From: a virus | Lineage: Duplodnaviria > Heunggongvirae > Uroviricota > Caudoviricetes | DNA: 46,690 bases | Strand: one strand, 5' to 3' | Virus record (IMG/VR): IMGVR_UViG_2718218402_000006 | Position numbers: made by a program | Shown: one piece after another, positions 39,001-42,000 of the stretch | Layout of the letters: each line of letters begins with the position of its first letter | Numbering within the stretch: position 1 is the first letter of the stretch

Positions 39001-42000
39001 TAAAAATTAGTCATATCACGCTTTGATTTGTTGAGCTTTTCACAACGCAAAAGCCCCAGCGTTTTCAGACTTGCAAATGCGCGTTTTAACGTTGACTCTG
39101 ACCAGAACGGGAACTGTTCCAGCCATTGTTCTGTTGTGTTATAAATCCAGCGAACACCATCACATTCCATGCCGGAACCGGTATCTCTCAACCAGTAATG
39201 CAGCTGCTGCAACACGATGGCTTCGTTCAGACCAATTTTCATCGCCAGCTGCGTGTTTATAACCAGCGGGCGTTCAGCAAAAAGGAGCTTCATCCCCTCC
39301 CCCAGAACACGTTATCAATGCGCCACCACGGCATTTCCCGCCGGACCACCACGATTCATCTGATTGAAACCAGCAATTACCACCGCGACAAGTTCATCAG
39401 CGTCTCTCACCAGTCGTTCATGCGTATCCACCAGTTCCCGAAAATAATCGGAACTGTGGCTGCGCATCCAGGCCACCAGCGGAGGTGGCATTGCCTTTTC
39501 GATCGCTGGTAACAAAGCCTGAATTTTTTTAACCGCATCAGGGGTGTCTTTCTCCACCCAGCGGAAAATTTTCTGAGTATTGCGAGCCAGGGCTTCCGGA
39601 TGGCTGTCGTCATACAGTTCCGGGAATGTCATACCCAGCTCAAAATAAGCCCGGGTTATTTCAGCTGCCGGAACTTTTTCACCGTCCGGACGCGCCCAGG
39701 CATTCATCGCCATGCGGATGTGTTCATGCTTGATTTTCATGAATCATTTGCCTCTTGATGCTTCGGGTATGATCGTTTTTGTCATTTGGTTGCTTCATCG
39801 ACATATTCTGCGAATAACATGACGAACGTCGTAAGTATGACCAGTCAACATCAGGACGAAGTTCTTCACACAGGACTCCACCTTTTGTTGCTCGTTCAAT
39901 CGCTGGACATCTCTCGGCAGGCAACCGACGTACACCTTTGATCCATTGATTTACGCTTGGAGGCGATACCCCTAAAAGTCTGGCCATTGCTGATTGCCCA
40001 CCAACAACAGCACAAGCTCGTTTGAATGAATAGTTCTCTTTTTTCATCGAATGAACTCCAAAAAACACACAATGATATTAGGCGACGCCTAATATCATTG
40101 TCAATAGGCTATGCCTAACAACCAAGAGGTAGGGATTGCCTAATGCAATGCACATAGGAGACTATTAAGCAATGCTTAGTGGTAAAGACTTAGGCCGAGC
40201 GATAGAGCAGGCCATTAATAAAAAAATTGCATCAGGAGCCGTCAAATCAAAGGCGGAGATCGCACGCCATTTCAAAGTCCAACCACCATCAATCCATGAC
40301 TGGATTAAGAAAGGTTCGATAAGTAAAGATAAACTTCCAGAACTATGGCGTTTCTTTTCTGATGTGGTTGGTCCAGAGCATTGGGGGCTTAACGAATACC
40401 CCATACCAACCCCTTCCTGCTCAGATTCAAAAAGAGAACTTTTAGACATAAACAGCCTTTATCAAGCCGCTTCTGATGAAAAAAGAGCAATTGTAGCCTT
40501 CCTCTTATCTGGAAATGCTGCGGAGCCTGGTTGGGTTGATTATGACGTTCGCGCCTACATTACTGCAATGGAAATGAAGGTAAGTAACTATCTGAAAAAT
40601 CAAGAATCAGAACGGAAAAGCCAGAACATCACCAAAACGGGAACTTAAACTTATATGGTCCGACGGGAAGCACCTAGATCCCGTTATTTAGCTCCCATTA
40701 CCTCTTCCACATACCATCGCCTATTAGGTTGTGCGCAAAAAGCATTAGGCATAGCCTATTGACAAGTAATTAGGCATTACCTATAGTTTTCTCATACCAA
40801 CCCACCCCGCCCCACAGAATGCAGGGCAATACTTTGAGTTACCAGGCAGTGGTCAGGGGGTAAGTAGCCAGCCCGAGGCGTAAGAACATGACGGCAGGGT
40901 TCAACTTTAATAACTATGCAGCAGGTTTTTGTTCCGCTACCCCGGCGTTAAGGGGAAATGAGGTCAACATGGATATGCTCAATCTTGGCAACAACGAATC
41001 TCTGGTATGTGGCGTGTTCCCCAACCAGGACGGCACGTTTACCGCGATGACGTATACCAGAAGCAAAACGTTTAAAACTGAAGCTGGCGCGCGTCGCTGG
41101 TTAACCAGAAACACTGACTGATGAGGTTGACGATGGAATTTAAAGATTTACCAGTACCATTCCAGGAAATGGCATCGAATGTGGTTCGCTCTCAACTGGC
41201 GACTCTTGACCTGAGTACCGTAGAAAAAGAAACCATCGATACTATATCCGGTAACGTGCGTCGTGCCTTTATAGGTCTGTATGAAGAGAAGCGCCTATTC
41301 GGCGGACAGAATTCGCCTGAAAACAAGAATCAAGCAAATGATGAGAAGCTGAAACACATTATCGCCTTACTTTTGGAAGACGCAAAACGTCTACAGCAAC
41401 TGGAACCAAATGCAGGCACAGAGGCCCGCATTTGGATTGCCATGAAATCACTCAAATGTGAAAGCAGTGATTATTTCAAAACAACAATTAAAACTACTCA
41501 ACTTTCGGGAGAGCTACTGAAGAAATTGCCATAAGAGCATGGTCTTTCTCTTGTTCTGCAAGATGAGCATTAATACCTGGTATGGTTTTTTCAAATTTAT
41601 CTATCTGTTGAATAACAACTTCGCGGTATACGTTTGTTTTTGTACCACCAAGCGCAGCCGTTAATGCAGAAAGCATATTTAGTATCATATCAGTGCGATA
41701 TGAAAGAATCCTGATAGCTTCATCTTGTTTTTCAATAATAGATTGCAGGGCCTCAATTTGCTTTTTATCCATTTCACCCTCCTGAGGGTTGGTAATTAAG
41801 GAGTTCTCCACGGGTCAGGTGGAGTGCGTGCGCCGGACACGGGTGAACATCCGGCACTGACAGTTTACTGAAAGGATATGTCCCTGAAAAGTCAGGGCAT
41901 AACGCGAAAGCGCACGGCGAAATTGGTCTCTCTATACGGTGTCGTTAAATTTAGTTCGACCGTGCGCTTCCGGTTGTGGCACTCCGCGAAATGGCGCGGC

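What the first reader, a model, noticed from the sequence alone, without database searches (positions are those of the whole stretch)
40048..40800. Immunity region: repressor flanked by two operator clusters sharing TAGGC/GCCTA half-sites, including a 31-bp perfect palindrome
The right cluster contains caatgatattaggcg-a-cgcctaatatcattg (40070-40100) overlapping a consensus-like divergent promoter (TTGACA - 18 nt - TAATAT) reading into the Cro-like gene. The left cluster (40728-40787) repeats the motif, including an exact reverse-complement copy of the 40103-40118 site, overlapping TTGACA-17-TATAGT reading into the early-left operon. Two clusters ~650 bp apart mirror lambda OR/OL and allow looping.
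Basis: seen in the sequence. Interest (0 to 1): 0.5.

Follow-up and report, generated by a model that had tools for sequence, protein, structure and literature searches.

The report
RacR prophage immunity region, two operator clusters
This is the ordinary on/off switch of a Rac-like prophage of E. coli: the RacR repressor gene sits between two clusters of its own binding sites. The cluster on the ydaS side has already been mapped experimentally in E. coli K-12; the other cluster is a well-conserved but apparently unreported lambda-OL-like counterpart.

Summary
TAGGC-N3-GCCTA with at most 1 mismatch occurs 5 times in 46.7 kb (0.92 expected; 0 of 100 shuffles reach 5). All five copies lie in two clusters flanking a RacR gene that is 89% identical to K-12 RacR.

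- The palindrome is 33 bp (40069-40101), not 31.
- The exact inverted copy is 21 nt, not 16.
- A fourth site over the racR ATG (40166-40178) was missed.
- The ydfA-side cluster has two strong sites, not three.

The racR-ydaS cluster and its TTGACA-18-TAATAT promoter are orthologous to the footprinted, TSS-mapped K-12 Rac elements (PMC9638921), so that part is already known.

The other cluster has OL2 next to the -35 hexamer and OL1 in the spacer/-10 of TTGACA-17-TATAGT. It reads into a ydfA/DicF/dicB/exo/xis/int operon. No RacR paper I could search mentions it. Evidence for it:
- It is present in K-12.
- It is kept in 78 of 79 assessable IMG/VR loci.
- It is kept in Mixta, Proteus and Achromobacter homologues.
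- The immunity-specific mosaic boundary falls just after its -10 hexamer.

The long palindrome is a rare allele (10 of 5,426 genomes), not a conserved unit. Looping is plausible, because RacR is reported to form octamers, but untested. Overall this is an ordinary lambdoid switch of low interest.

The parts
39315..39740 (-). ydaT-like gene (CII analogue), second gene of the rightward operon
   Evidence: Matches Pfam YdaT_toxin at E=2.4e-9. Annotated as a toxin YdaT family protein in the identical record NZ_CP148578.1.
39730..39747 (-). YdaT-box, ATGATTCATGAAAATCAA on the minus strand, spanning the ydaT start codon
   Evidence: Read directly in the sequence. Identical to the footprinted K-12 YdaT-box quoted in PMC11879457.
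39724..40047 (-). ydaS / Cro-like gene, first gene of the rightward (PR-like) operon
   Evidence: Matches Pfam YdaS_toxin at 9.8e-30 and P22_Cro at 1.5e-8. 86% identical to K-12 YdaS.
40075..40104 (-). PydaS (PR analogue): -35 TTGACA at 40104-40099, 18-nt spacer, -10 TAATAT at 40080-40075
   Evidence: Found by the promoter scan. Both hexamers and the spacing are the same as in the K-12 promoter, which was confirmed by primer extension and -10 mutation (PMC9638921). The K-12 sequence is shown.
40069..40101 (.). 33-bp perfect palindrome, an allele-specific extension of operator O1
   Evidence: Found in only 10 of 5,426 E. coli genomes and exact in 2 of 80 IMG/VR loci. K-12 has only a 15-bp palindrome here.
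40079..40091 (.). O1, TAGGCGACGCCTA, in the spacer and -10 of PydaS
   Evidence: 0 mismatches. Half-sites are almost invariant across 37 alleles. Orthologous to a region footprinted by RacR in K-12.
40105..40117 (.). O2, TAGGCTATGCCTA, directly next to the -35 of PydaS
   Evidence: 0 mismatches. Part of the 21-nt exact inverted repeat shared with OL2 and the PL -35.
40130..40142 (.). O3, TAGGGATTGCCTA, in the racR promoter region
   Evidence: 1 mismatch. Conserved at -42 from the racR ATG in all 80 IMG/VR loci.
40166..40178 (.). O4, TAAGCAATGCTTA, spanning the racR ATG. This is the site the K-12 paper calls operator 3, located at the leaderless transcript start.
   Evidence: 2 mismatches. Conserved in every homologue down to 58% protein identity. 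Described in PMC9638921.
40172..40648 (+). racR repressor gene (158 aa)
   Evidence: NCBIfam NF049929 equivalog, 244 bits against a cut-off of 200. 89% identical to K-12 RacR. No Peptidase_S24 domain.
40662..40685 (+). Weak hairpin followed by UAUUU after the racR stop codon; a possible racR terminator
   Evidence: Fold energy is -9 kcal/mol and no better than shuffles. There is one compensatory G-C to A-U change relative to K-12. Weak evidence.
40719..40737 (.). Degenerate half-sites (GCCTA-T-TAGGT-TGT-GCGCA); a possible weak OL3
   Evidence: 3 mismatches to the full site. The spacing to OL2 varies (19-21 bp). Absent from the non-Escherichia loci. Inconclusive.
40746..40758 (.). OL2, TAGGCATAGCCTA, directly next to the -35 of the leftward-operon promoter
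   Evidence: 0 mismatches. Also present in K-12. Conserved together with TTGAC in Mixta, Proteus, Achromobacter and a Pseudomonadota MAG.
40759..40787 (+). PL analogue (equivalent of dicBp): -35 TTGACA at 40759-40764, 17-nt spacer, -10 TATAGT at 40782-40787
   Evidence: 11 of 12 matches to consensus. The -10 hexamer TATAGT is unchanged in all 22 OL alleles and TTGACA in all but one, which has CTGACA. The mosaic boundary with other immunity types falls just after the -10.
40771..40783 (.). OL1, TAGGCATTACCTA, in the spacer and -10 of the PL analogue
   Evidence: 1 mismatch. Lies 25 bp from OL2 in every locus that has the pair.
40793..41121 (+). Leader and first gene (DUF1391 / ydfA-like, 40969-41121) of the early-left operon. 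The leader is shared with prophages of other immunity types.
   Evidence: Alignment A1. Pfam DUF1391 at 4.7e-28. Annotation.
42105..42156 (+). DicF sRNA inside the operon driven by the PL analogue
   Evidence: Rfam RF00039, 76.7 bits against a gathering score of 48.

Best explanation
This is the immunity region of a Rac-type lambdoid prophage of E. coli. It is built like lambda's PL/OL - cI - PRM/OR/PR - cro.

Proposed mechanism:
- RacR dimers recognise the 13-17-bp inverted repeat (A)TTAGGC-N3-GCCTAA(T).
- On the ydaS side, O1 lies in the spacer and -10 of PydaS and O2 lies next to its -35. Bound RacR therefore blocks RNA polymerase and silences ydaS (Cro-like), ydaT (CII-like) and the replication genes.
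- O3 and O4 overlap the racR promoters and the leaderless racR start. This gives negative autoregulation at higher RacR concentrations.
- Downstream of racR, the same arrangement is repeated: OL2 next to the -35, and OL1 in the spacer and -10 of TTGACA-17-TATAGT. RacR therefore also silences the early-left operon (ydfA-like, DicF, dicB, exonuclease, xis, int).
- YdaS probably competes for the same sites.

Status of each step:
- Shown in the K-12 orthologue: RacR footprints on the ydaS-side sites, the PydaS start site with its -10 mutant, and octamer formation.
- Shown here: the sites, their enrichment, and their conservation.
- Inferred: RacR binding and repression at the OL/PL cluster, and bridging of the O1-O2 and OL1-OL2 pairs (about 640-690 bp apart) by a RacR octamer to form a loop.
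For: - Enrichment and clustering of sites.
- The promoter scan places the two best promoters exactly on the clusters.
- RacR identity and YdaS/YdaT identity.
- K-12 experiments on the same sites and promoter (PMC9638921; PMC5700373).
- K-12 carries the same OL pair between racR and ydaG.
- Phylogenetic footprint over IMG/VR alleles. In OR, 3 of 40 half-site columns vary against 34 of 70 other columns (p=6e-6). In OL, 1 of 20 against 19 of 38 (p=5e-4). The four OR sites are present in 80 of 80 loci and the OL pair in 78 of 79 assessable loci.
- Homologues at 58-63% identity (Mixta, Proteus, a Pseudomonadota MAG) and S24-fused homologues in Achromobacter keep the arrangement site-TTGACA-site with 25-bp spacing amid otherwise unrelated flanks.
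- Prophages with other repressors share the leader from about 40793 onwards. Upstream of it they carry their own palindromes in the same place.
- Lowering RacR in K-12 derepresses ydaG, ydaF, kilR, racC, recE and other Rac genes (PMC6765115; bioRxiv 10.64898/2026.09.06.749655).
- RacR forms octamers by size-exclusion chromatography (PMC11014345).
Against: - There is no direct binding or start-site data for the OL/PL cluster in any RacR-type prophage in the literature I could search.
- Three of eight divergent homologue loci (Klebsiella L012, Nitrosomonas MAG L014, Aeromonas MAG L016) show no OL pair within about 2.1-2.5 kb downstream.
- Derepression of the left operon in K-12 could be partly indirect, for example through YdaS/YdaT or prophage excision.
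Confidence: 0.85

Rival explanations
1. Both clusters are real RacR operators but act independently. The RacR octamer sits on the four adjacent sites between racR and ydaS, as the K-12 authors propose. The OL pair is repressed locally by a separate tetramer, and no OR-OL loop forms.
For: PMC11014345 interprets the octamer as four dimers on four inverted repeats. Escherichia alleles do have four sites on that side. OR-OL distances vary widely among homologues (639-654 bp in the short-repressor loci, 1.9-2.6 kb in Achromobacter) with no conserved helical phasing.
Against: Non-Escherichia homologues have only three OR sites, yet keep the OL pair. The O1-O2 and OL2-OL1 modules have the same geometry (25-26 bp) and in this window share 21 identical bases. 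This is the arrangement lambda CI uses for octamer bridging. Neither point is decisive.
Confidence: 0.4
2. The 33-bp palindrome is a separate functional element: an intrinsic terminator on the minus strand, a cruciform, a super-affinity operator, or a YdaT site. Under this reading it is more than operator O1 with chance-symmetric flanks.
For: The scan flags a 15-pair stem followed by GTGTTTTTTG on the minus strand. The outer arms ATGATA/TATCAT resemble the YdaT half-site ATGATT. In K-12, YdaT protects the PydaS region.
Against: - The perfect extension is rare: 10 of 5,426 E. coli genomes and 2 of 80 IMG/VR loci.
- K-12, where RacR binding was footprinted, has only a 15-bp palindrome. The flanks are the most variable columns of the region.
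- The hairpin lies upstream of, or at, the PydaS start, so it is not transcribed from that promoter, and no minus-strand unit ends there.
- The YdaT-like arms are spaced 15 nt apart, not 6.
Confidence: 0.08
3. The cluster after racR is a non-functional recombination remnant, a duplicated copy of the O2/-35 module, or a chance match. Under this reading it is not a working operator-promoter.
For: The 21-nt identity with the O2/-35 module could reflect a recent duplication or gene conversion.
Against: The pair, with the -35 hexamer between the sites, is conserved at 25-bp spacing in hosts from different genera while the flanks are unrelated. Half-sites and hexamers are almost invariant over 22 Escherichia alleles while spacers vary. 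The immunity mosaic boundary lies exactly at its downstream edge, and other immunity types have their own palindromes there.
Confidence: 0.03

Closest known systems
E. coli K-12 Rac prophage racR-ydaS immunity region (Krishnamurthi 2017, PMC5700373; NAR 2022, PMC9638921; NAR 2023, PMC11014345)
   Same: Orthologous. RacR is 89% identical and YdaS 86% identical. The operator consensus (T/A)TAGGC-n3-GCCTA(T/A) is the same, as are the four sites at -93, -67, -42 and -6 from the racR ATG. The TTGACA-18-TAATAT ydaS promoter, the YdaT-box and the OL pair downstream of racR are also the same.
   Different: - About 87% DNA identity.
- O1 is extended to a 33-bp palindrome in this allele.
- The racR -10 elements named in K-12 (AGTAAG, GAGAAT) are changed here (CCAAGA, GAGACT).
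- The left arm is Qin-like (ydfA-like, DicF, dicB) instead of ydaG-ydaF-kilR.
- The prophage lies next to potC.
- The K-12 papers describe only the racR-ydaS sites, not the OL pair.
Phage lambda OR/OL with CI, Cro, PR, PRM and PL
   Same: - A repressor gene lies between two operator clusters.
- Adjacent sites are 25-26 bp apart, compared with 23-24 bp in lambda (recalled from memory, not checked here).
- Operators overlap strong divergent and leftward promoters.
- The repressor mRNA is leaderless and the repressor forms octamers (reported for K-12 RacR).
- Cro-like and CII-like genes lie downstream of PR.
   Different: - RacR has no Peptidase_S24 domain and shows little sequence similarity to CI (15% identity by global alignment, PMC5700373).
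- There are four plus two strong sites instead of three plus three.
- The clusters are about 0.65 kb apart instead of about 2.3 kb.
- YdaS reportedly does not repress racR.
- Looping has not been shown.
CP-933P prophage PaaR2/YdaS switch with OR and OL/PL933P (PMC8630535)
   Same: Same gene order with ydaS-ydaT. The repressor forms octamers. An OL/PL set was identified downstream and shown to be repressed by the repressor and by YdaS.
   Different: The operator sequence is unrelated (GTTTAGTAA-type repeats). paaR2 is followed by a toxin-antitoxin pair.
Qin prophage DicA/DicC and dicBp (PMC10448788)
   Same: The operon controlled by the second cluster here is the dicBF-type operon (ydfA-like, DicF, dicB). 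dicBp is the PL analogue and is repressed by the immunity repressor.
   Different: The repressor and operators are of a different immunity type. Only the transcribed leader and genes downstream of about 40793 are shared among immunity types.

Membership tests
RacR-type prophage immunity region (Rac) | The repressor is a RacR orthologue | tested here: met
   NCBIfam NF049929 equivalog, 244.1 bits against a cut-off of 200. 141 of 158 residues identical to K-12 RacR.
RacR-type prophage immunity region (Rac) | Inverted repeats (T/A)TAGGC-n3-GCCTA(T/A) between racR and ydaS, one of them over the racR ATG | tested here: met
   Sites start at 40079, 40105, 40130 and 40166. The consensus comes from PMC9638921.
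RacR-type prophage immunity region (Rac) | Divergent ydaS-ydaT operon driven by a TTGACA/TAATAT promoter that overlaps the operators | tested here: met
   The K-12 promoter was mapped experimentally.
RacR-type prophage immunity region (Rac) | RacR protein physically binds these sites and represses the promoters in this allele | not testable with these tools
   Shown only for the K-12 orthologue and only for the racR-ydaS region.
Lambda-type bipartite immunity region (OR plus OL) | A second operator cluster overlapping the early-left promoter beyond the repressor gene | tested here: met
   Supported by sequence and conservation only. OL2 and OL1 flank and overlap TTGACA-17-TATAGT. Conserved in K-12, in 78 of 79 assessable IMG/VR loci, and in distant homologues.
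Lambda-type bipartite immunity region (OR plus OL) | The immunity-specific DNA module is bounded by the operator clusters (mosaic boundary) | tested here: met
   Alignment with two other immunity types. Homology starts at about 40793, just after the PL -10 hexamer. Upstream, each type carries its own palindromes.
Lambda-type bipartite immunity region (OR plus OL) | Cooperative repressor octamer loops OR to OL | not testable with these tools
   The octamer is reported by size-exclusion chromatography for K-12 RacR. No looping data were found.
Lambda CI / LexA-type repressor (protein family) | C-terminal Peptidase_S24 self-cleavage domain | tested here: not met
   No Pfam hit for the window's RacR. 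The same N-terminal domain is fused to Peptidase_S24 in Achromobacter L013 and Aeromonas L016. The window's system therefore works like lambda, but its repressor is not a member of the CI family.
Intrinsic terminator (alternative reading of the palindrome) | A conserved GC-rich hairpin plus U-run at the 3' end of a transcription unit | tested here: not met
   A hairpin plus T-run exists on the minus strand. It lies at or upstream of the PydaS start, no unit ends there, and the long stem is absent in K-12 and most alleles.

The most novel reading that the evidence does not exclude
The conserved OL1-OL2 pair downstream of racR is the missing partner of the reported RacR octamer. Two dimers on O1-O2 and two on OL1-OL2 would close a short loop of about 0.65 kb, which would tighten repression of ydaST and of the dicB or kilR operon and shape racR autoregulation. 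This would revise the published view that the octamer sits on the four racR-ydaS repeats. The same DNA-binding module and operator set also serves S24-type, SOS-cleavable repressors in Achromobacter and Aeromonas. The C-terminal domain therefore appears to have been swapped while the switch DNA was kept.
Probability: 0.4. Interest if true: 0.35.

Novelty: new member of a known kind. Interest (0 to 1): 0.2.

Why it matters
RacR is essential in E. coli K-12 because it silences toxic prophage genes, and its switch is under active study. The racR-ydaS operators are already mapped, so that part adds nothing new. The one modestly useful point is the conserved second operator pair over the leftward promoter. 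It explains simply why lowering RacR derepresses kilR, ydaG, recET and, in this prophage, dicB and DicF. It also offers a testable alternative role for the RacR octamer. It is what anyone familiar with lambdoid phages would expect.

Tried and rejected
- Terminator reading of the palindrome. The hairpin plus T-run exists, but it is at the wrong position relative to the PydaS start and is not conserved. Rejected.
- Third OL site. The 40725-40737 site has 3 mismatches and variable spacing, and is absent outside Escherichia. Left as inconclusive.
- Window-wide enrichment at 2 or fewer mismatches. Not enriched; only the threshold of 1 or fewer is informative.
- racR terminator hairpin. The fold is no better than shuffles and there is a single compensatory change. 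Weak.
- IMG/VR scan with the N-terminal-domain alignment. It returned only near-identical Escherichia-type loci. That was useful for population-level footprinting but not for diversity.
- Literature searches for a RacR left operator, a ydaG-side site, looping or ChIP-exo data. Nothing was found. The library lacks most subscription-journal papers, so absence is not proof.
- Phage collection search. Only one phage record (vB_EcoS-683R6) carries this immunity region, plus a partial Klebsiella phage hit.
- Rfam search over 39000-43000. Nothing was found in the operator regions; the only hit was DicF.
- Structure prediction and the large protein searches. Not run, because the protein's identity was unambiguous.
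Full report
**What the window is.** Bases 39700-41200 are 100% identical to a chromosomal prophage of E. coli Z1322HEC0005. More than 1,000 complete E. coli genomes carry at least 80% of this stretch at 87-100% identity. Gene order in that record, left to right in window orientation:
- ydaV-like and a replication-region gene
- ydaT-like (39315-39740, minus strand)
- an HTH gene (39724-40047, minus strand)
- racR (40172-40648, plus strand)
- a DUF1391 gene (40969-41121), a hypothetical gene, dicB, a DUF1482 gene, an exonuclease, xis, int
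- the host gene potC

Supporting identifications:
- RacR scores 244 bits against the NCBIfam RacR equivalog, cut-off 200. It is 89% identical to K-12 RacR.
- The divergent gene matches Pfam YdaS_toxin and P22_Cro and is 86% identical to K-12 YdaS.
- DicF lies at 42105-42156.

The finding therefore lies in the immunity region of a Rac-type lambdoid prophage whose left arm resembles Qin.

**Checking the observation.**
- The palindrome is 33 bp (40069-40101), not 31.
- TAGGC-N3-GCCTA with at most 1 mismatch occurs five times in 46.7 kb, starting at 40079, 40105, 40130, 40746 and 40771. Chance predicts 0.92, and 0 of 100 shuffles reach five.
- At 2 or fewer mismatches the window-wide count is not enriched (9 against 13). 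That threshold does add a site at 40166-40178 spanning the racR ATG.
- The exact inverted copy is 21 nt long (40098-40118 versus 40745-40765) and includes the -35 hexamer.
- The two best promoter-like matches in 1.5 kb fall on the clusters. One is minus-strand TTGACA-18-TAATAT (40104-40075). The other is plus-strand TTGACA-17-TATAGT (40759-40787).
- Adjacent sites start 26, 25 and 36 bp apart on the ydaS side and 25 bp apart on the other side.

**What is already known.** The ydaS-side cluster is the published RacR operator set.
- Krishnamurthi et al. noted three GCCTAA/TTAGGC repeats in the 123-bp K-12 intergenic region and saw three RacR-DNA complexes (PMC5700373).
- The NAR 2022 study mapped one ydaS start site with -35 TTGACA and -10 TAATAT, and abolished the promoter by mutating the -10.
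- That study also mapped three racR promoters, including a leaderless one, and footprinted RacR.
- It derived the consensus (T/A)TAGGC-n3-GCCTA(T/A), with one operator on the ydaS promoter and one over the racR ATG (PMC9638921).
- The K-12 sequence aligns with the window site for site.
- RacR is reported to be an octamer by size-exclusion chromatography. [quoted passage not shown]
- The YdaT-box ATGATTCATGAAAATCAA of K-12 (PMC11879457) is present unchanged at 39730-39747.

**The second cluster.** None of the RacR papers I could search mentions sites downstream of racR, ydaG-side regulation, or looping. Five lines of evidence say the pair is real.
1. K-12 has the same pair between racR and ydaG.
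2. In 80 IMG/VR loci (37 distinct OR alleles, 22 distinct OL alleles), all have the four OR sites at -93, -67, -42 and -6. Of the 79 with enough flank, 78 have the OL pair. Variation avoids the half-sites. In OR, 3 of 40 half-site columns vary against 34 of 70 others (p=6e-6). In OL, 1 of 20 against 19 of 38 (p=5e-4). A smaller five-sequence set gave the same picture.
3. Homologues with 58-63% identical repressors (Mixta, Proteus, a Pseudomonadota MAG) and two Achromobacter loci keep the same arrangement. It reads TTAGGC-N3-GCCTA-TTGAC(A/T)-N5-ATTAGGC-N3-GC(C/T)TA, in otherwise unrelated DNA.
4. Prophages that share the ydfA-type left arm but carry a LexA-type or another repressor are homologous to the window only from about 40793 onwards, just after the -10 hexamer. 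Upstream of that point each has its own palindromes in the same position. The immunity-specific module therefore ends with this operator-promoter, as in lambda.
5. In K-12, lowering RacR derepresses ydaG, ydaF, kilR, racC, recE and other Rac genes 40-fold or more.

The promoter architecture is the same at both ends: one site directly next to the -35 hexamer, and one site in the spacer running into the -10 hexamer.

**The palindrome.** The long perfect palindrome is not a conserved unit.
- K-12 has a 15-bp palindrome and E. ruysiae a 19-bp one. The common O157 and O103 alleles have a different central triplet and imperfect flanks.
- The exact 47-nt context occurs in 10 of 5,426 E. coli genomes.
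- The perfect 33-mer occurs in 2 of 80 IMG/VR loci.
- The flanks that create the extension are among the most variable columns.
- The terminator-like reading on the minus strand fails on position, because the hairpin lies at or upstream of the PydaS start, and on conservation.

**Mechanism.** Most likely, RacR dimers on O1 and O2 block PydaS, and dimers on OL2 and OL1 block the leftward promoter. O3 and O4 autoregulate racR, and YdaS competes for the same sites. Binding at the ydaS side is shown in the K-12 orthologue. Binding at OL/PL is inferred from sequence and conservation. Octamer-mediated looping between the two pairs (centres 641-692 bp apart) is plausible by analogy with lambda, but untested. 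The published interpretation of the octamer is a rival. Three divergent loci lack a detectable OL pair within about 2.1-2.5 kb downstream, so the pair is common but not universal.

**Relation to lambda CI.** The window's RacR has no Peptidase_S24 domain, so it is not a CI/LexA-family protein, although the switch works like lambda's. The RacR N-terminal domain (residues 1-75, 65-96% identical across loci) is fused to a Peptidase_S24 domain in Achromobacter and in an Aeromonas MAG. The Achromobacter loci keep the operator motif; in the Aeromonas locus only 2-mismatch matches are found.

**Verdict.** This is an ordinary lambdoid immunity region, orthologous to the experimentally studied Rac switch. 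The only new element is explicit recognition of the OL/PL-type operator pair for RacR, which is expected for this kind of system. Interest is low.

Noticed in passing
L013:2501-3598, L015:2501-3586, L016:2501-3175 (compare window 40172-40402): The RacR N-terminal DNA-binding domain (about 75 aa, 65-96% identical to the window's across loci) is fused to a Peptidase_S24 (LexA/CI-type) C-terminal domain in Achromobacter L013 and an Aeromonas MAG L016; L015 looks the same by sequence but was not scanned. E. coli, Proteus and Klebsiella versions have a different C-terminal domain with no Pfam match. The Achromobacter loci keep the TAGGC-N3-GCCTA operators, and their OL pairs lie 1.9-2.6 kb from OR; L016 has only 2-mismatch matches and no OL pair. 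This suggests a C-terminal domain swap on a conserved switch.
   Followed up: partly
window 39730-39747: There is an exact copy of the K-12 YdaT-box (ATGATTCATGAAAATCAA, minus strand) over the ydaT start codon. In K-12 this is the site from which YdaT activates a reverse, PRE-like promoter for racR (PMC11879457).
   Followed up: partly
window 40793-40890: The leader of the left operon is C-rich and highly conserved (CATACCAACCCACCCCGCCCCACAGAA...). It is nearly invariant across prophages with three different immunity types and in K-12 Rac. It starts exactly at the mosaic boundary. It could be a Rho-utilisation site, an antitermination site or a processing signal; this was not examined.
   Followed up: no
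window 42105-42156: A DicF sRNA (Rfam 76.7 bits) and dicB (42331-42519) lie in the operon driven by the RacR-controlled leftward promoter. In this prophage the Qin-type cell-division inhibitors would therefore be under RacR rather than DicA control.
   Followed up: partly
window 40719-40729: An everted half-site pair (A/G)CCTA-T-TAGGT lies 17-21 bp upstream of OL2. It is conserved in nearly all Escherichia OL alleles but is absent in other genera. It may be a weak extra RacR or YdaS contact.
   Followed up: partly
window 40662-40685: A short hairpin followed by UAUUU lies just after the racR stop codon. It shows one compensatory G-C to A-U change relative to K-12. It may be a weak racR terminator separating racR from the leftward promoter, but its fold energy is no better than shuffles.
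   Followed up: partly
L007 (JARKOR010000130.1): A 5.2-kb contig binned as 'Candidatus Nanosynbacter' carries an E. coli-type racR region with an 89% identical protein and identical operators. This is almost certainly a binning contaminant in that MAG.
   Followed up: no
window 40130-40170 versus L002 2745-2790: The -10 elements assigned to the K-12 racR promoters PracR2 (AGTAAG) and PracR3 (GAGAAT) read CCAAGA and GAGACT in this allele. racR promoter strength or usage may therefore differ from K-12.
   Followed up: no
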